This document shows, one piece after another, positions 13,013 to 19,473 of a stretch of 64,000 nt of DNA. Source of the DNA: Candidatus Woesearchaeota archaeon (GTDB taxonomy: Archaea > Nanobdellota > Nanobdellia > Woesearchaeales > GCA-2686295); NCBI GenBank assembly GCA_937912225.1, contig CALDOJ010000038.1, positions 17,408-81,407 of the forward strand. Direction: 5' to 3'. Made by a program: the position numbers and the translations under genes. The notes beneath the pieces were generated by a model. The model saw nothing but the letters and a program-made list of their open reading frames with translations, ran no database searches and was not told where the DNA came from. The number at the start of each line of letters is the position of its first letter. The first letter of the stretch is position 1.

Positions 13013-13895
13013 AAAGTTTAGTTATTAATCCTAAAATTGCCAGAAAGTATGTTGTTAAGAAAACAAATAATACTGAAAAAAATATACTAATATTTGGTGA
13101 AATAAAATCTTTTAACAGAAAAACATATGCACTTTCTCTTAAACCCCATCCATTAAATGATATTGGAATAATAGTAATAATAACTGCTAAACTAACACAA
13201 TATAAAAGATAAGTAATTGGTATTGTTACATTTAATGATTTAAGTATAATAAATGCAACTATCGAAAAACAAATCCAAGTAATAACACTAGTAATTGTGA
13301 TTAAAAATAGTTCTTTGTTCAAATTTATTTTTGGAAAATTAATTTTTTTTAAGAAAGGTATATTATGAGTTTTAATTCCTAATTTTACGAATATAGTCCA
13401 TATTATTGGTGTTAAAACAAGAGAACAAACAATCATTATCAACAAATTTTTAGTTAATAAGTAACTGCCAACGAAAATTACAAATACAATAATATCAAAC
13501 ACTTTTTCAAAAAAAACACTTGCTAATCCATTCTGTTTTGAAATACCATATTTTTTTGCATAAGAAAGACCCTTTACAAATTCACCAATTTTACCAGGAG
13601 TAATAGATCCATAATAAACACCTATTAAATAAAATTTTAAAGAATCTTTAATTGAAATTTGTTTATAAATAGTAGTTATTTCTCTCCATCTTATAGCTCT
13701 AAAAATCCAAGATAACAAAGTAAATATTAAAGTATATAATAATAGTATATAATTAGTTTGTTCTATTTCCTTAGTAAAATTATTCATATCCAAGAATTTT
13801 GTAACTAAAATAGAAATAAATATGATTGAAACTAAAAGTTCAATAAATACTTTGTATTTCTTAATTAAATCTTTGATTCTAGTCCATTTAGTCAC
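12996..13895 (-). CDS. Flippase-like (UPF0104 / LPG-synthase TM-like) polytopic membrane protein
   Basis: About 8 TM helices and an N-terminal pattern typical of UPF0104 flippase-like proteins that accompany polyprenol-phosphate GT2 enzymes. Confidence 0.45.
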   Translation of the reverse strand: MTKWTRIKDLIKKYKVFIELLVSIIFISILVTKFLDMNNFTKEIEQTNYILLLYTLIFTLLSWIFRAIRWREITTIYKQISIKDSLKFYLIGVYYGSITPGKIGEFVKGLSYAKKYGISKQNGLASVFFEKVFDIIVFVIFVGSYLLTKNLLIMIVCSLVLTPIIWTIFVKLGIKTHNIPFLKKINFPKINLNKELFLITITSVITWICFSIVAFIILKSLNVTIPITYLLYCVSLAVIITIIPISFNGWGLRESAYVFLLKDFISPNISIFFSVLFVFLTTYFLAILGLITKLSKVHK

Positions 13896-15574
13896 TTTAA
13901 ATTAATATAATTAAAAATCACATTTCCATTTGTCAGATCATAATTTTTTGTTTGAGGAATTTTATTCTGAATCATAGAATTTATTTGACTTTCATTAAAA
14001 CTTCCTCCTTTCTGAAAAAGATAATAATATGGTTGTATTTGCGGACCATTATTAATAAATCCTATTTGTACTAATGAATAAGAGTTATAAATGTGATCTT
14101 TAAATTCTTGATTGCCTAATATTTGAGAGAAACCCCATTGATAAACAAAAACCCATTTAACATTAAGCTCTTCTTCTCCTTTTTTCAAATCTTCAACAGT
14201 TCCAAATTCTATTAATCTTCTTTTTGCATGCCAACCCAATCCTCTATCTTGATGTCCGGATTCAAAAATTACTTCATCAGGAAGACTATGTTGATTAATA
14301 TATTCGCCAGCCACATCTAAACCAAAAAATTGTGTGTCAAATTGTCTTGTAGTGCTTAATTTTAAGTGTTGAAACCAAGGAATCAAAAGTATTATTATTG
14401 CTATAAAAACAATAGCTGTTTTAACATTTTTTTCTTTAATAAAGGAAAAAATAGAGTTGAAAATAAATAAGAGCGCATATGCAACTGAAATCATTATTAT
14501 AGGAGCATATGGGATTTGATAATAACTATGACCTGTCATTTGAGGAGGTGCAAAAGCTGCATAAATTAAATAACTAAAAAACCAAAAAGATAAAAATCTA
14601 AAATTCCACTTTTTAATTTTAAGAATAATTAAAACAAAACCCACAAGTGCTAAAATAAAACCTAATTTTGTAAAATTATCTGTAATTGCATAAGTATAAA
14701 TTATTTTCCAGAAATTTGAAGTCAACAAGGTTGATAATGTTTCAGAAGCAAAAGGTTTAATACCTAAATGAAATGAATGTAGATTATTAAAATAGTTAGA
14801 ATATTTTATGAATAAGAAAGTAATTATAATTCCTCCAAGTCCATAAAGATATTGTTTCCAATAGTGTTTTTTGAATTCTTTTGATTTAAAATTTAACTTT
14901 TTAAAAGGGAATATTGAGATTATTGGAATTAATAAAATTAATGCAGGTTGTTTTGTTAAACCACCTATTGTAAAAAATAAACTGAACAAAATAAAATTCT
15001 TATAATTATCTTTTTCTATCCATTTCAAAAAGAAATAAATACTCACCATCATAAAAAATAATGCTGGAATATCATATTGAACATTTCTTCCAAAAAAGAT
15101 TAATAATGGACAAATTGAGACAAAAAAAGCAGACAACAATGCAAAATCTTCTTTTTTAAATAACTGTTTTATAATTAAATAAGTAAATAGAATAACTCCT
15201 ATTGAAAACAATATCATAACGGTTCTGGCCACAATTAGTTTAACTCCAAATAATTTCCAACCTAAAACAATTATCCATGATAGTAAAGGAAAATTATCTA
15301 CATGTTCACCTTCAGGATTATCAAGATTAATATTATAAAATAATCTATTAACAAAATAATCTCCATCTTCATACATAAACCAAGCTTCACCTAATGTGTG
15401 AGCTTCTTTCATGTTGTGATATCCAATTACAGGATAATCAGCATGATAACTTCTAAGATAAAAACCGAAAATTAGAATTAATCCCAGAACTATAATAGGC
15501 CATTTAGCTTTAAGAAATTTTAAAGTACCATCAAAATTAAAATCCTCATCACCCATGTTATTTTGAGTTATCAT
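13892..15574 (-). CDS. GT-C fold glycosyltransferase, PMT_2/ArnT-like (GT39/GT83-related)
   Basis: 560 aa polytopic protein. The first extracytoplasmic loop carries acidic residues (YEDGDY) after TM1, as in ArnT/PMT enzymes. It is coupled (4-nt overlap) to the flippase-like gene. Confidence 0.5.
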   Translation of the reverse strand: MITQNNMGDEDFNFDGTLKFLKAKWPIIVLGLILIFGFYLRSYHADYPVIGYHNMKEAHTLGEAWFMYEDGDYFVNRLFYNINLDNPEGEHVDNFPLLSWIIVLGWKLFGVKLIVARTVMILFSIGVILFTYLIIKQLFKKEDFALLSAFFVSICPLLIFFGRNVQYDIPALFFMMVSIYFFLKWIEKDNYKNFILFSLFFTIGGLTKQPALILLIPIISIFPFKKLNFKSKEFKKHYWKQYLYGLGGIIITFLFIKYSNYFNNLHSFHLGIKPFASETLSTLLTSNFWKIIYTYAITDNFTKLGFILALVGFVLIILKIKKWNFRFLSFWFFSYLIYAAFAPPQMTGHSYYQIPYAPIIMISVAYALLFIFNSIFSFIKEKNVKTAIVFIAIIILLIPWFQHLKLSTTRQFDTQFFGLDVAGEYINQHSLPDEVIFESGHQDRGLGWHAKRRLIEFGTVEDLKKGEEELNVKWVFVYQWGFSQILGNQEFKDHIYNSYSLVQIGFINNGPQIQPYYYLFQKGGSFNESQINSMIQNKIPQTKNYDLTNGNVIFNYINLK

Positions 15575-15650
15575 AAGATTATATAAATATTGCTTTTTTT
15601 AAGTCGATATTAATAAAAATTTATAAGCTATTAATAATTCTTTTTTCTTA

Positions 15651-15845
15651 ATGATATTTGAAGAAAATAAATTTGTTATAAAACTTGGGGAGAAAATTGG
15701 TTTTTTATTTTCCTATTGTTTATTTACAACAATTTTATTTTTTGTTCTTTCTTTTTCAGGTCATGGTTTAGTTTTTTGGAAAGTTGCAATTATAACTTTT
15801 ATAATAACTTTAATTGGTTTAATTATTAAGAGGGTTTTGAAATGA
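15651..15845 (+). CDS. SxtJ-like membrane protein, N-terminal half (split ORF)
   Basis: 64 aa with two TM helices, resembling the N-terminal half of carbamoyltransferase-associated SxtJ proteins. Its stop overlaps the next ATG (ATGA). Confidence 0.35.
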   Translation: MIFEENKFVIKLGEKIGFLFSYCLFTTILFFVLSFSGHGLVFWKVAIITFIITLIGLIIKRVLK

Positions 15846-18093: not shown

Positions 18094-18462
18094 ATGTCAA
18101 ACAAGAAAACTCCTTTTTTTGCAATATTGATGATTATATTTTGTACTCTTTTAACTTCTTCAGGTCAATATTTAATTAAAATAGGAACTGAAACTCTTAG
18201 TCTATCTTTGTTAAGCATAGTAACTAATATCCCTTTAATTTTTGGTTTTTTCTTATATGGGCTTGGAGGAATTGTTTTAGTTATTGCTTTGAAATATGGT
18301 GAGCTGTCTGTACTTTATCCGTTTATTGCGCTTAGTTTTATTTGGGTTGCATTCATTTCAATAAACTTTCTTAACGAATTCATGAGTTTATTTAATTGGT
18401 TTGGAATGGTTGCAATTATTGGCGGAGTTAGTTTAATTGGAATAGGTGGTTCTCGTGAATGA
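18094..18462 (+). CDS. SMR/EamA-like 4-TM small membrane protein, ArnE-like flippase subunit
   Basis: 122 aa, 4 TM helices, conserved YPFIALSFIWVAFISINFLNE. It overlaps its paralog. Confidence 0.55.
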   Translation: MSNKKTPFFAILMIIFCTLLTSSGQYLIKIGTETLSLSLLSIVTNIPLIFGFFLYGLGGIVLVIALKYGELSVLYPFIALSFIWVAFISINFLNEFMSLFNWFGMVAIIGGVSLIGIGGSRE

Positions 18463-18796
18463 ATTGTCAGCAATTCTTTTAACAATATTTGCAACATTTA
18501 TAGGAGCTTTCGGATCATTATATTTGAAGAAAGGTTCTAAGCATGTTAGTAAAGACTTTTTTAAATTAATAACTAATTATGAATTACTATTTGGTATATT
18601 TTTATTTTTGTTTTCATCAGTTTTCTATATAACTGCTTTGAAATATGGTGAACTTTCTTTATTATATCCAATAACTTCTGTAAGTTATATCTGGGTTTCA
18701 TTACTTTCAGTAAAATTTTTGAACGAAAACATGAATAAATATAAATGGTTAGGAATTACCCTGATTGTAATAGGCGTGGTGTTTATATCAAGATGA
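18446..18796 (+). CDS. SMR/EamA-like 4-TM small membrane protein, ArnF-like flippase subunit
   Basis: 116 aa paralog of the preceding ORF (YPITSVSYIWVSLLSVKFLNE). The pair overlaps by 17 nt. Confidence 0.55.
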   Translation: MVLVNELSAILLTIFATFIGAFGSLYLKKGSKHVSKDFFKLITNYELLFGIFLFLFSSVFYITALKYGELSLLYPITSVSYIWVSLLSVKFLNENMNKYKWLGITLIVIGVVFISR

Positions 18797-19473
18797 GCAA
18801 AAAAATATTTATTGTAATTGCAGCATATAATGAAGAGAAATCAATAGTTAAAGTAATAAAGAACTTAAAGTCTCATGGTTACAAAAATATTGTTATTGTA
18901 GATGATGGTTCTTCTGATCAGACTTATAATTTAATTGATAAACAAGGAGTTTTTGCTTTAAAACATCCTATTAATAGAGGTCAAGGTGCATCTTTAAAGA
19001 CAGGAATTGATTTTGCACTTTTGAAAGGAGCAGATATAATTGTAACTTTTGATGCTGACGGTCAACATCATGCAGAAGATATTAAAAAATTAGTTGATCC
19101 AGTTTTAAAAGGTAAATGTGATGCTGCTCTTGGTTCAAGATTTTTACGAAAAGATTCAAACACTCCACCTATTAGAAAAATTCTTATTAGAGTTGGAATA
19201 TTAGTTGTTTGGTTTTTATATGGAATGAAATTAACTGATTCTCATAATGGATTTAGAGCTTTATCTAGATTTGCCGCTCAAAAAATAGATATAACATCTG
19301 ATCGAATGGAACACGCTTCTCAAATTGTTGAAGAAATTAATAAGAACAAAATTAAATATAAAGAAATTCCTGTAACCATCACTTATACTGATTATTCTAA
19401 ACAAAAAGGTCAAAGTAATTTTAATAGCGTTAAAATTGGTTTAAGAATGCTATTTAGAAAGCTTATGAATTAA
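18793..19473 (+). CDS. GT2 polyprenol-phosphate glycosyltransferase (ArnC/GtrB-like); true start probably the MSKKIF ATG at 18793 inside the track ORF 18745..19473
   Basis: IFIVIAAYNEE, IVIVDDGSSD and TFDADGQHH (DxD) motifs. The ATG overlaps the stop of the upstream SMR gene. Confidence 0.8.
   Translation: MSKKIFIVIAAYNEEKSIVKVIKNLKSHGYKNIVIVDDGSSDQTYNLIDKQGVFALKHPINRGQGASLKTGIDFALLKGADIIVTFDADGQHHAEDIKKLVDPVLKGKCDAALGSRFLRKDSNTPPIRKILIRVGILVVWFLYGMKLTDSHNGFRALSRFAAQKIDITSDRMEHASQIVEEINKNKIKYKEIPVTITYTDYSKQKGQSNFNSVKIGLRMLFRKLMN

What the first reader, a model, noticed from the sequence alone, without database searches (positions are those of the whole stretch)
13892..19473. ArnC / ArnE-ArnF / ArnT-like three-component extracytoplasmic glycosylation module
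The module has a polyprenol-phosphate GT2 (18793..19473), an overlapping pair of 4-TM SMR-like proteins (18094..18796) and a GT-C PMT/ArnT-like enzyme (13892..15574) beside a flippase-like protein. This recapitulates the logic of bacterial lipid-A Ara4N or LTA/wall-teichoic glycosylation: charge a lipid carrier, flip it, then transfer on the outer face. In an archaeon this would modify a surface glycan or protein after export and is separate from AglB-mediated transfer.
Basis: inference. Interest (0 to 1): 0.6.

Follow-up and report, generated by a model that had tools for sequence, protein, structure and literature searches.

The report
Archaeal lipid-linked sugar surface-decoration gene module
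This stretch of a tiny (DPANN) archaeon's genome encodes the parts needed to load a sugar onto a membrane lipid, flip it outward and attach it to the cell surface. It is a real and conserved module, but of a kind already known from bacteria and salt-loving archaea.

Summary
The 560-aa protein is a PMT_2/ArnT-class GT-C enzyme, not an AglB paralogue. The two overlapping 4-helix proteins are ArnE-like, have an SMR fold, lack the drug-efflux glutamate and show opposite predicted topologies. The 226-aa GT2 is a polyprenol-phosphate sugar synthase, but of the PpgS/GacI type. The truly ArnC-like GT2 lies at 10041-10967, beside AglB.

In 80 DPANN loci a PpgS-like GT2 lies within 3 kb of the GT-C in 37. 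Its usual partner there is DUF2304 (GacJ/Rv3632-like; 35 of 45 loci) and the ArnE/F-like pair in only 6. An MprF-flippase-like gene directly follows the GT-C in 31 of 75 loci.

Relatives have pair-GT2 directly beside the GT-C, so the carbamoyltransferase cassette looks like a lineage-specific insertion. However, about 80% of the pair's homologues sit in a secDF-pair-pyrH context, not beside glycosyltransferases.

Verdict: a plausible three-component Dol-P-sugar decoration pathway embedded in an AglB island. The identities of the flippase and of the donor synthase remain unresolved. It is a new member of a known kind, of modest interest.

The parts
13892..15574 (-). GT-C glycosyltransferase of the PMT_2/ArnT class, 560 aa. 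About 13 TM helices plus a C-terminal alpha/beta domain from roughly residue 415 to 560.
   Evidence: PF13231 72 bits and PF02366 48 bits. AF2 model with pLDDT 91. GT-C_A fold matching STT3/AglB/PglB and ArnT at TM-score 0.53-0.60. Best PDB profile hit is ArnT 5ezm, E=0.0085. No WWDxG motif. More than 130 DPANN homologues. Conserved residues near TM1 and in the first external loop: R41, H44, D46, G51-Y52-H53, K56, E57.
12996..13895 (-). MprF-flippase-domain-like membrane protein (LPG_synthase_TM/UPF0104/YbhN family), 299 aa. Its start overlaps the GT-C stop by 4 nt.
   Evidence: PF03706 132 bits and TIGR00374 77 bits, above the 43-bit cutoff. A homologue lies immediately downstream of the GT-C on the same strand in 31 of 75 related loci, and within 5 kb in about 16 more.
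15651..15845 (+). Small hydrophobic ORF of 64 aa, the first gene of the carbamoyltransferase cassette.
   Evidence: Called on contigs L004-L006. Conserved in L098. 2-3 hydrophobic segments. No Pfam family.
15842..16093 (+). Small single-TM ORF of 83 aa, the second gene of the cassette.
   Evidence: Called on all identical contigs. Conserved upstream of the carbamoyltransferase in L098. No Pfam family.
16103..17863 (+). NodU/CmcH-type O-carbamoyltransferase, 586 aa.
   Evidence: PF02543 275 bits and PF16861 236 bits; NodU 165 bits, below cutoff. Absent between the pair and the GT-C in L010, L053, L060, L064, L066, L072, L092 and L094. Present elsewhere in the island in L042, L053 and L098.
17876..18037 (+). 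DUF5989 small membrane protein of 53 aa, the last gene of the cassette.
   Evidence: PF19451 78.7 bits. Called on identical contigs.
18094..18462 (+). Subunit 1 of the ArnE/F-like half-size EamA pair. 122 aa, 4 TM helices, predicted N-in topology.
   Evidence: NCBIfam ArnE 35 bits and ArnF 24 bits, both below cutoff; EamA 22 bits, below the gathering score. 41% identical to subunit 2. K+R bias +3.
18455..18796 (+). Subunit 2 of the ArnE/F-like pair. 113 aa, 4 TM helices, predicted N-out topology.
   Evidence: EamA 47 bits, above the gathering score; ArnE 40 bits and ArnF 38 bits, below cutoff. hhalign against E. coli ArnE gives 96.9% probability over the full length. AF2 pLDDT 90, with best PDB matches EmrE and Gdx protomers. 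K+R bias -5 and no acidic residue in TM1.
18793..19473 (+). PpgS/GacI-type polyprenol (dolichol)-phosphate sugar synthase. GT2, 226 aa, no C-terminal TM helices.
   Evidence: PF00535 89 bits. NCBIfam PpgS 197 bits over the full length (cutoff 370), AglJ 97 bits, ArnC 40 bits. DAD motif and only one marginal hydrophobic helix. A homologue lies within 3 kb of the GT-C in 37 of 80 loci.
19470..20423 (-). UDP-glucose (or UDP-GlcNAc) 4-epimerase GalE, convergent on the GT2.
   Evidence: TIGR01179 321 bits, above the 262-bit cutoff. Epimerase genes recur beside the PpgS-like GT2 or the GT-C in related loci.
20420..21478 (-). Geranylgeranyl-reductase-family flavoprotein, a candidate for saturating the dolichol carrier.
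   Evidence: TIGR02032 154 bits, against a cutoff of 159. Adjacent to the PpgS-like GT2 in at least 6 GT-C-anchored loci and in L092, L094 and L098.
5424..5753 (-). DUF2304 (GacJ/Rv3632-like) 3-TM protein, the usual partner of PpgS-like GT2s. Here it is separated from the GT2 and followed by a GT4 gene at 4279-5427.
   Evidence: PF10066 87 bits. Adjacent to the PpgS-like GT2 in 35 of 45 loci. GacJ and Rv3632 stimulate GacI and PpgS (bioRxiv 10.1101/180810).
10041..10967 (+). ArnC/GtrB-type polyprenol-phosphate GT2 with two C-terminal TM helices, 308 aa. It is the alternative donor synthase.
   Evidence: 35% identical to E. coli ArnC over 292 aa. NCBIfam ArnC 191 bits and PgfS 177 bits, both below cutoff. 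Adjacent to AglB in 19 of 26 loci. Within 5 kb downstream of the GT-C in 31 of 43 loci.
6984..9995 (+). AglB (STT3) oligosaccharyltransferase, the separate N-glycosylation enzyme of the island.
   Evidence: PF02516 163 bits. WWDFG motif at residue 628.
21665..25286 (+). Two Ig-like surface (S-layer-like) proteins with C-terminal membrane anchors, candidate acceptors.
   Evidence: NPCBM_assoc, FixG_C, CARDB and Big_9 domains. Conserved next to the reductase and PpgS-like genes in L053, L063, L064 and L070. The acceptor role is inference only.

Best explanation
The region belongs to a surface-glycosylation island (about 128-21478) of a low-GC DPANN archaeon. Alongside the AglB N-glycosylation genes, the island encodes a lipid-linked monosaccharide decoration pathway.

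**Proposed steps**
1. On the cytoplasmic face, the TM-less PpgS/GacI-type GT2 (18793-19473) transfers a sugar from a UDP-sugar to dolichol phosphate. It probably needs a small membrane partner, which would be the DUF2304 protein at 5424-5753. The sugar is probably Gal or GalNAc, given the adjacent GalE.
2. In this lineage the lipid-linked sugar, or its precursor, may also be O-carbamoylated by the co-oriented carbamoyltransferase cassette.
3. The glycolipid is moved to the outer leaflet. The candidate flippases are the antiparallel ArnE/F-like heterodimer encoded just upstream of the GT2 and the MprF-flippase-like protein translationally coupled to the GT-C. Either or both could act.
4. The PMT_2/ArnT-class GT-C (13892-15574) transfers the sugar on the outer face to a surface glycan or protein. 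The neighbouring S-layer-like proteins are the obvious candidates.

**Shown versus inferred**
Shown: family and fold of every component, gene linkage across DPANN genomes, and the absence of the cassette between the two halves in relatives. Inferred: the sugar, the lipid carrier, the direction of flipping, which flippase acts, which of the two GT2s is the donor synthase, and the acceptor.
For: - **Families and folds:**
- **GT2-to-GT-C linkage:** a PpgS-like GT2 lies within 3 kb of the GT-C in 37 of 80 loci. It is divergently adjacent (400 bp or less) in 19 of 65.
- **A small membrane partner is nearly always present:** 41 of 45 PpgS-like genes have either DUF2304 (35) or the pair (6) adjacent on the same strand.
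- **Pair-to-GT2 coupling in the window:** the genes overlap (8 nt and 4 nt). The pair-GT2 unit sits directly beside the GT-C in 8 relatives.
- **The pair looks like a lipid-type SMR:** no TM1 acidic residue, and opposite K+R bias of +3 versus -5. This matches the description of lipid-transporting SMRs in PMC9574504.
- **GT-C to flippase-like coupling:** 4-nt overlap in the window, and the same arrangement in 31 of 75 loci.
- **Supporting neighbours:** GalE scores above its curated cutoff and a geranylgeranyl-reductase paralogue is adjacent.
- **No other flippase candidate:** no MOP/Wzx-type flippase is encoded anywhere in the 64 kb.
- **Exact precedents:** epimerase + PpgS + Rv3632 (DUF2304) + Rv3779 (GT-C) in mycobacteria and corynebacteria, where the flippase is still unidentified (PMC9671496). 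Also GacI/GacJ/GacL in streptococci (10.1101/180810).
Against: - **Synteny does not single out the PpgS-like GT2.** An ArnC-like GT2 lies within 5 kb downstream of the GT-C in 31 of 43 fully flanked loci. The PpgS-like GT2 does so in 29 of 43.
- **The PpgS-like GT2 could be an initiator instead.** In most relatives it is followed by DUF2304 and then GT4 genes. That would also fit initiation of a lipid-linked oligosaccharide for AglB, as AglJ does.
- **The pair is in the island in only a minority of loci.** It occurs in about 9 of 80 GT-C loci. Most of its family sits in a secDF-pair-pyrH context.
- **No component reaches an equivalog cutoff.** PpgS scores 197 against 370; ArnE scores 40 against 92.
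- **The GT-C catalytic motif is atypical.** The 'DE' of ArnT aligns to an invariant K56-E57.
- **A related protein may be a flippase, not a transferase.** Agl23, which NCBIfam models as TIGR03663, has been reported as one (PMC11182771).
- **There is no biochemical evidence at all.**
Confidence: 0.55

Rival explanations
1. Different wiring of the same island. The ArnC/GtrB-like GT2 (10041-10967) makes the Dol-P-sugar used by the GT-C. That sugar may be modified by the adjacent B12-radical-SAM enzyme and methyltransferase. The LPG_synthase_TM protein is the flippase for it. The PpgS-like GT2, DUF2304 and the GT4s instead build the lipid-linked oligosaccharide for AglB. The ArnE/F-like pair flips that precursor or something else.
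For: An ArnC-like GT2 lies within 5 kb downstream of the GT-C in 31 of 43 loci, and it is the only GT2 nearby in 8 of them. The GT-C to LPG_synthase_TM coupling is far more conserved than the GT-C to pair linkage (31 of 75 against about 7 of 80). PpgS-DUF2304-GT4 operons are common, and 18 of 41 DUF2304 genes have a GT4 adjacent. In Haloferax, a GT2 of this general type (AglJ) starts the N-glycan on Dol-P (PMC3871713).
Against: The ArnC-like GT2 is tied to AglB (adjacent in 19 of 26 loci). It is convergent to the GT-C and usually at least 1 kb away. The PpgS-like GT2, by contrast, shares a divergent promoter region with the GT-C in 19 or more loci. DUF2304-assisted GT2s that have been characterised (GacI, PpgS) make monosaccharide donors for GT-C enzymes, not oligosaccharide primers.
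Confidence: 0.25
2. The two 4-TM proteins form a housekeeping small-solute or lipid transporter unrelated to this glycosylation pathway. Their position beside the GT2 in this lineage is a by-product of island rearrangement.
For: Of 73 context-informative loci chosen by homology to the pair, 60 show pyrG-secF-secD-pair-pyrH(-YdjM-UbiB) with no glycosyltransferase within 1.5 kb. The pair scores below the ArnE and ArnF cutoffs. Most GT-C loci lack it.
Against: The pair overlaps the GT2 gene, and the pair-GT2(-reductase) unit is conserved in 11 or more loci. Island-located pairs cluster apart from secDF-linked ones on a rough NJ tree, and other pairs lie beside GT2, AglB or epimerase genes in further lineages: L113, L127, L156, L162, L169. 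secF-secD directly flanks AglB and the ArnC-like GT2 in L019, L024, L073 and L084, so the 'housekeeping' site borders the island in some genomes. The proton-coupling glutamate of drug-type and guanidinium-type SMRs is absent.
Confidence: 0.2
3. The GT-C-fold protein is not a transferase. Like Haloarcula hispanica Agl23, it would be a translocator of Dol-P-hexose or lipid-linked oligosaccharide serving AglB.
For: There is a weak TIGR03663 (Agl23) hit of 22.6 bits. Agl23 is reported to flip lipid-linked glycans in vitro and to rescue yeast rft1 (PMC11182771). No MOP flippase is encoded in the window. The position that aligns to the Asp of the ArnT 'DE' motif is an invariant Lys.
Against: The Agl23 score is far below its cutoff of 126, whereas the PMT_2 and PMT scores are above theirs. 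There are invariant or near-invariant polar and acidic residues at the outer end of TM1 and in the first external loop, and a conserved extracytoplasmic C-terminal domain typical of GT-C transferases. A separate flippase-like gene is translationally coupled to it.
Confidence: 0.1

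Closest known systems
Mycobacterium/Corynebacterium arabinogalactan GalN modification: Rv3634c epimerase, PpgS (Rv3631), Rv3632 (DUF2304) and Rv3779 (GT-C)
   Same: The same four kinds of gene are present: a GalE-type epimerase, a PpgS-like TM-less GT2 (best NCBIfam hit, aligned over its full length), a DUF2304 partner, and a PMT_2-class GT-C. The logic is the same: make a polyprenyl-P-monosaccharide, flip it, and transfer it outside (PMC9671496).
   Different: The host is an archaeon, so the carrier is presumably dolichol phosphate and the acceptor cannot be arabinogalactan. 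The GT2 scores 197 bits against an equivalog cutoff of 370. In this window DUF2304 is 13 kb from the GT2. The island adds two flippase-like candidates and a carbamoyltransferase. In mycobacteria the flippase is unidentified.
Streptococcus pyogenes GacI/GacJ/GacK/GacL (GlcNAc side chain of the group A carbohydrate)
   Same: A GT2 that makes a lipid-P-monosaccharide, stimulated by a DUF2304 protein (GacJ), with a GT-C (GacL) transferring the sugar outside (bioRxiv 10.1101/180810).
   Different: The Gac system uses a Wzx-type flippase (GacK, from my own knowledge). No MOP/Wzx gene occurs in this window. The organism, carrier and acceptor all differ.
E. coli/Salmonella ArnC-ArnE/ArnF-ArnT (lipid A Ara4N modification)
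   Same: A pair of adjacent half-size 4-TM paralogues homologous to ArnE (hhalign 96.9%, 26% identity). An ArnT-class GT-C is the best PDB sequence hit. An ArnC-like GT2 (35% identity) is present in the island, at 10041-10967.
   Different: There are no ArnA, ArnB or ArnD homologues, so no Ara4N pathway. The GT2 that is operonic with the pair is not the ArnC-like one. The pair and the GT-C score far below the Arn equivalog cutoffs. There is no lipid A in archaea.
Haloferax volcanii AglD/AglR/AglS and Haloarcula hispanica Agl22/Agl23
   Same: These are archaeal precedents for charging Dol-P with one sugar, moving it outward and adding it outside the cell independently of AglB's own transfer (PMC3871713; PMC11182771).
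   Different: AglR is a different kind of flippase candidate from the SMR-like pair or the MprF-like protein. The GT-C here is not Agl23 (22.6 bits against a cutoff of 126). No comparison with the AglS sequence could be made.
MprF flippase domain / UPF0104 (YbhN, HpnL) family
   Same: The gene coupled to the GT-C is a member of TIGR00374/PF03706, the family of the lysyl-PG flippase domain of MprF.
   Different: It is stand-alone, with no synthase domain, and its substrate is unknown. A role in flipping polyprenyl-P-sugars rests only on gene linkage (31 of 75 loci).

Membership tests
ArnE/ArnF undecaprenyl-phosphate-Ara4N flippase (NCBIfam NF011625, NF002816) | Score at or above the curated equivalog cutoff (92 and 99 bits) | tested here: not met
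   Subunit 1 scores 35.3 (ArnE) and 23.7 (ArnF). Subunit 2 scores 40.0 and 37.6.
ArnE/ArnF undecaprenyl-phosphate-Ara4N flippase (NCBIfam NF011625, NF002816) | Detectable full-length homology to E. coli ArnE or ArnF | tested here: met
   hhalign of alignment A2 against ArnE gives 96.9% probability over 101 columns at 26% identity. Against ArnF it gives only 36% probability.
ArnE/ArnF undecaprenyl-phosphate-Ara4N flippase (NCBIfam NF011625, NF002816) | Encoded with the Ara4N pathway genes arnA, arnB, arnC, arnD and arnT | tested here: not met
   No ArnA, ArnB or ArnD homologues occur in the 64 kb. Only an ArnC-like GT2 and an ArnT-class GT-C are present.
SMR family (Pfam PF00893; EmrE/Gdx type) | Match to PF00893 | tested here: not met
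   Neither subunit gives a hit, even at E<=10. Both match PF00892 EamA instead.
SMR family (Pfam PF00893; EmrE/Gdx type) | Four-helix SMR protomer fold | tested here: met
   AF2 model with pLDDT 90. The best PDB matches are EmrE 7mgx (TM-score 0.73/0.79, rmsd 2.9) and Gdx-Clo 6wk5 (0.69/0.74).
SMR family (Pfam PF00893; EmrE/Gdx type) | Membrane-embedded TM1 glutamate (E14) for proton and cation coupling | tested here: not met
   No acidic residue in TM1 in 89 of 89 second subunits and 79 of 89 first subunits. The lipid-transporting SMR subtype is described as often lacking this glutamate (PMC9574504).
SMR family (Pfam PF00893; EmrE/Gdx type) | Paired genes with opposite membrane orientation (antiparallel heterodimer) | tested here: inconclusive
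   The K+R bias is +3 against -5 in the window. Across 89 pairs the second subunit is always negative (mean -6.1). The first is only weakly positive (mean +1.3; 44 positive, 18 negative, 27 zero).
PpgS (NCBIfam NF058614) / GacI-type polyprenyl-phosphate HexNAc synthase | Score at or above the equivalog cutoff (370 bits) | tested here: not met
   196.9 bits. It is the best hit and aligns residues 21-241 (242-aa ORF numbering from 18745) to positions 2-225 of the 226-position model.
PpgS (NCBIfam NF058614) / GacI-type polyprenyl-phosphate HexNAc synthase | Partner DUF2304 membrane protein (Rv3632/GacJ) | tested here: met
   A DUF2304 gene lies in the island at 5424-5753 (87 bits). It is adjacent to the GT2 in 35 of 45 related loci, but not adjacent in this window.
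PpgS (NCBIfam NF058614) / GacI-type polyprenyl-phosphate HexNAc synthase | Sugar specificity (UDP-GalNAc or UDP-GlcNAc) and lipid-phosphate product | not testable with these tools
   The only indirect hint is the adjacent GalE, which scores 321 bits against a cutoff of 262.
ArnC (NCBIfam NF007986) | Full-length similarity including the two C-terminal TM helices | tested here: not met
   The GT2 at 18793-19473 scores 40.5 bits, aligns to E. coli ArnC over only 110 aa and has no C-terminal TM helices. The other GT2, at 10041-10967, does meet this feature (35% over 292 aa; 191 bits, still below the 529-bit cutoff).
PMT/PMT_2 (GT39/GT83-like) GT-C glycosyltransferases | Pfam PMT_2 or PMT match above the gathering score | tested here: met
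   PF13231 scores 72.4 against 26.1. PF02366 scores 48.2 against 22.7.
PMT/PMT_2 (GT39/GT83-like) GT-C glycosyltransferases | GT-C_A fold | tested here: met
   Foldseek gives probability 1.00 to STT3, AglB, PglB and ArnT (TM-score 0.53-0.60), with weaker matches to DPY19, ALG9/12 and Pmt4. The fold does not discriminate ArnT from STT3.
PMT/PMT_2 (GT39/GT83-like) GT-C glycosyltransferases | Acidic catalytic motif ('DE') in the first extracytoplasmic loop | tested here: inconclusive
   hhalign (61% probability) aligns the ArnT 'DE' to K56-E57, where K56 is invariant and E57 is at least 90% conserved. D46, just after TM1, is at least 90% conserved.
AglB/STT3 oligosaccharyltransferase | PF02516 match and WWDxG motif | tested here: not met
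   The GT-C has neither. The true AglB at 6984-9995 has both.
Agl23 (TIGR03663) | Score at or above the cutoff (126 bits) | tested here: not met
   22.6 bits.
Three-component polyprenyl-phosphate-sugar glycosylation system (GT2 + flippase + GT-C) | All three gene types present and genetically linked across relatives | tested here: met
   GT2 lies within 3 kb of the GT-C in 37 of 80 loci. A flippase-like gene follows the GT-C in 31 of 75. The pair-GT2 unit sits beside the GT-C in 8 loci.
Three-component polyprenyl-phosphate-sugar glycosylation system (GT2 + flippase + GT-C) | Lipid-linked monosaccharide intermediate flipped and used outside the membrane | not testable with these tools
   This requires biochemistry or genetics.
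MprF-type flippase-like domain (TIGR00374 / PF03706) | Score above the curated cutoffs | tested here: met
   TIGR00374 scores 77.3 against 43.2. PF03706 scores 132.5 against 33.4.

The most novel reading that the evidence does not exclude
One or both flippase-like components could be the still-unidentified translocator of PpgS/GacI-type lipid-linked monosaccharides. The candidates are the SMR-fold ArnE-like heterodimer and the MprF-flippase-like protein that follows the GT-C in about 40% of DPANN loci. On this reading the ArnE-like pair, nearly ubiquitous in Woesearchaeota-like genomes next to secDF, would be the general Dol-P-sugar flippase of these archaea, recruited into the island here, perhaps to handle a carbamoylated sugar-lipid.
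Probability: 0.3. Interest if true: 0.55.

Novelty: new member of a known kind. Interest (0 to 1): 0.35.

Why it matters
DPANN archaea are mostly uncultured and depend on surface contacts with hosts, and their surface glycobiology is essentially uncharacterised. This analysis shows that they share a conserved island architecture, written as [GT4 <- DUF2304 <- PpgS-like GT2][GT-C -> MprF-like][ArnC-like GT2 <- AglB]. That architecture mirrors the bacterial GacI/GacJ/GacL and PpgS/Rv3632/Rv3779 systems.

It also supplies two concrete candidates for the flipping step, which is still unassigned in mycobacteria (PMC9671496). Neither candidate has been tested.

The practical yield is a short list of genes for heterologous assays. 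There is no new principle here. Extracytoplasmic sugar addition from Dol-P-monosaccharides is already documented in haloarchaea.

Tried and rejected
1. **AglB-paralogue idea for the GT-C.** Rejected: no STT3 hit and no WWDxG motif.
2. **Drug-efflux SMR idea for the pair.** Not supported: no PF00893 hit and no TM1 glutamate.
3. **AA_kinase next to the pair in other genomes as isopentenyl phosphate kinase.** This would have linked the pair to dolichol synthesis. Rejected: the gene is archaeal UMP kinase PyrH (188 bits against a cutoff of 158). uppS and ispH lie nearby only in L090, L091 and L167.
4. **A secDF-pyrH site in the window.** I looked for one to test whether the pair had relocated. None is present. 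Whether a genome carries both a secDF-linked and an island-linked pair could not be tested, because only +/-10 kb per locus can be fetched.
5. **A MOP/Wzx/AglR-type flippase in the 64 kb.** None found.
7. **Homologue search with the LPG_synthase_TM protein.** It returned only 11 hits and no informative fusions. An iterated HMM over the fetched loci was used instead.
8. **Literature searches on DPANN glycosylation and on DUF2304 in archaea.** Nothing specific was found.
9. **Pfam search of the 64-aa and 83-aa ORFs.** No family found.

Full report
**Organism and setting**

The window is about 28% GC. It carries an intron-containing tRNA, an AglB/STT3 gene, RFC and other archaeal markers. The GT-C protein of the finding occurs identically on 11 public contigs. 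All of its homologues come from DPANN archaea: bins labelled Woesearchaeota, Nanoarchaeota, Aenigmatarchaeota, Altiarchaeota or Undinarchaeota.

The finding lies inside a glycosylation island running from about 128 to 21478. In order, the island contains:
- a radical SAM gene, three GT4 genes and a methyltransferase;
- DUF2304 (5424-5753, minus strand) and a sugar dehydratase/epimerase;
- AglB (6984-9995), which has a WWDFG motif;
- an ArnC/GtrB-like GT2 (10041-10967), a B12-radical-SAM gene (10972-12420) and a methyltransferase;
- on the minus strand, LPG_synthase_TM (12996-13895) and the GT-C (13892-15574);
- on the plus strand, ORFs of 64 aa and 83 aa, a carbamoyltransferase, DUF5989, the two 4-TM proteins and a 226-aa GT2;
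- on the minus strand, GalE and a geranylgeranyl-reductase paralogue;
- finally, two Ig-like surface proteins.

**Checking the observation**

- *GT-C.* It matches PMT_2 (72 bits) and PMT (48 bits), with no STT3 match. An AlphaFold model built on 34 homologues has pLDDT 91 and a GT-C_A fold. Foldseek gives probability 1.00 to STT3, AglB, PglB and ArnT at TM-scores of 0.53-0.60. The only significant PDB sequence-profile hit is ArnT. The protein lacks the WWDxG motif that the neighbouring AglB has.
- *The two small proteins.* They are paralogues, 41% identical. Both are EamA-type half-transporters, and their best NCBIfam hits are ArnE and ArnF, although far below the cutoffs. A profile of 28 homologues aligns to E. 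coli ArnE over its full length with 96.9% probability.
- *Fold and topology of the pair.* The modelled protomer (pLDDT 90) is closest to EmrE and Gdx (TM-score about 0.7-0.8). Neither subunit has an acidic residue in TM1. The K+R bias is +3 for the first subunit and -5 for the second, which predicts opposite orientations. Across 89 pairs the second subunit is always strongly biased and the first only weakly. Lack of the central glutamate is the stated hallmark of the lipid-transporting SMR subtype (PMC9574504).
- *226-aa GT2.* It has a DAD motif and no C-terminal TM helices. Its best matches are polyprenol-phosphate glycosyltransferases: PpgS at 197 bits over the full length, AglJ at 97 bits and ArnC at only 40 bits.

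**What the neighbourhoods of relatives show**

I fetched 80 DPANN genome loci around GT-C homologues and annotated them with the window's proteins. The recurrent architecture is [GT4 <- DUF2304 <- PpgS-like GT2] divergent from [GT-C -> LPG_synthase_TM], followed by [ArnC-like GT2 <- AglB].

| Linkage | Count |
|---|---|
| PpgS-like GT2 within 3 kb of the GT-C | 37 of 80 |
| PpgS-like GT2 divergently adjacent (400 bp or less) | 19 of 65 |
| DUF2304 adjacent to the PpgS-like GT2 | 35 of 45 |
| 4-TM pair adjacent to the PpgS-like GT2 | 6 of 45 |
| LPG_synthase_TM gene immediately downstream of the GT-C, same strand | 31 of 75 |
| ArnC-like GT2 adjacent to AglB | 19 of 26 |
| ArnC-like GT2 within 5 kb downstream of the GT-C | 31 of 43 fully flanked loci |
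| PpgS-like GT2 within 5 kb of the GT-C | 29 of 43 fully flanked loci |

The GT-C therefore sits between two Dol-P-sugar synthase genes. Synteny alone cannot say which one feeds it.

**The carbamoyltransferase cassette**

In L010, L053, L060, L064, L066 and L072, and in the metagenome loci L092 and L094, the pair-GT2 unit lies next to the GT-C with no carbamoyltransferase between them. An epimerase gene or a short stretch intervenes in some (L060, L064, L066, L072, L092, L094). L010 is otherwise collinear with the window. The cassette of 64-aa ORF, 83-aa ORF, carbamoyltransferase and DUF5989 occurs elsewhere in the island in L042, L053 and L098.

All four carbamoyltransferase-containing loci also carry the pair in the island. 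In the window the cassette, the pair and the GT2 are co-oriented with gaps of 56 nt or less, although a TATA-like element precedes the pair. A functional link, such as carbamoylation of the lipid-linked sugar before flipping, is possible but speculative.

**Is the pair dedicated to glycosylation?**

I fetched a further 80 metagenome loci chosen only by homology to the pair, in addition to five found by exact look-up. Of the 73 that were context-informative, 60 show pyrG-secF-secD-pair-pyrH(-YdjM-UbiB). The kinase in that arrangement is UMP kinase, not isopentenyl phosphate kinase. Only 13 loci have GT2, AglB or epimerase genes within 1.5 kb.

On a rough NJ tree the island-located pairs, including the window's clade, group apart from the secDF-linked clade.

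In L019, L024, L073 and L084, secF-secD directly flanks AglB and the ArnC-like GT2. In L088 and L089 the pair is 2.7 kb from AglB. So the secDF site and the island are neighbours in some genomes.

The pair family is thus not specific to this module, and its role here is an inference from operon structure and ArnE homology. Nothing, however, indicates drug efflux.

**Mechanism**

The best-supported reading is a lipid-linked monosaccharide decoration pathway of the PpgS/GacI type.

1. A GalE-type epimerase supplies the UDP-sugar.
2. The TM-less GT2, with a small membrane partner, makes the Dol-P-sugar.
3. A flippase moves it outward.
4. The GT-C transfers it outside the membrane.

This matches, gene for gene, the mycobacterial and corynebacterial system of Rv3634c, PpgS, Rv3632 and Rv3779, in which the flippase is still unidentified (PMC9671496). 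It also matches GacI/GacJ/GacL (10.1101/180810).

The window offers two flippase candidates and no MOP-type flippase. The acceptor is unknown. The adjacent, syntenically conserved S-layer-like proteins are candidates.

The rivals are: the ArnC-like GT2 as donor synthase, with the PpgS-like GT2 initiating the AglB glycan; the pair as an unrelated housekeeping transporter; and the GT-C as an Agl23-like translocator (PMC11182771).

**Comparison and novelty**

Functionally this is the widespread three-component scheme. Archaeal precedents exist in AglD/AglR/AglS (PMC3871713) and Agl22/Agl23.

No component reaches an equivalog cutoff for ArnC, ArnE, ArnF, PpgS or Agl23. These are therefore family-level relatives, not members of those specific systems.

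The 'Arn' framing is only partly apt. The operonic GT2 is PpgS-like, and the ArnC-like GT2 is a different gene.

I rate the finding a new member of a known kind. The useful by-products are the conserved DPANN island architecture and two testable flippase candidates.

Noticed in passing
window 10041-13012: An ArnC/GtrB-like GT2 is followed by a B12-binding radical SAM enzyme and a methyltransferase. The radical SAM's best NCBIfam hit is HpnJ (269 bits, below cutoff). GT2-radical-SAM adjacency recurs in 6 related loci, and an HpnL-like (LPG_synthase_TM) gene is nearby. This recalls the hopanoid HpnI/HpnJ/HpnL logic and may modify a lipid-linked sugar.
   Followed up: partly
window 25324-25450: Rfam finds a 127-nt tRNA, presumably intron-containing, that ARAGORN did not report.
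   Followed up: no
window 21665-25286: Two Ig-like/CARDB-type surface proteins with C-terminal membrane anchors. They are conserved next to the reductase and PpgS-like genes in L053, L063, L064 and L070. They are likely S-layer or surface glycoproteins.
   Followed up: partly
window 27573-29462: A GDSL lipase-like protein and a Peptidase_M15_4 (D-Ala-D-Ala carboxypeptidase-like) protein in an archaeon. These might act on a bacterial partner's cell wall.
   Followed up: no
L087-L171 (for example L090 3920-8076): Most homologues of the 4-TM pair sit in a strongly conserved pyrG-secF-secD-pair-pyrH-YdjM-UbiB arrangement. In L090, L091 and L167 a cis-prenyltransferase (uppS) and an IspH/LytB gene follow. 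IspH is unusual for an archaeon.
   Followed up: partly
L019 15033-20356; also L024, L073, L084: secF-secD lies immediately upstream of AglB and the ArnC-like GT2. The protein-export genes and the N-glycosylation island are therefore neighbours in several DPANN genomes.
   Followed up: partly
window 15651-18037; L042, L053, L098: The carbamoyltransferase travels with small membrane ORFs: a 64-aa ORF, an 83-aa ORF and DUF5989. All four loci that contain it also carry the ArnE/F-like pair in the island.
   Followed up: partly
window 13892-15574, residues 41-57 of the GT-C: The family-invariant motif R41, H44, D46, P48, G51-Y52-H53, K56, E57 replaces the usual 'DE' of ArnT and PMT with K-E in the profile alignment.
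   Followed up: partly
window 57989-62609: A glycogen-type cluster made up of a GT4/GT5 starch-synthase-like gene, a GH57 gene and a eukaryote-like glycogen synthase (PF05693, 521 bits).
   Followed up: no
window 36011-43502: A run of ORFs with no Pfam match lies next to a T2SSE/archaeal secretion ATPase-like gene (38226-40514). It may be a pilus or surface-appendage locus.
   Followed up: no
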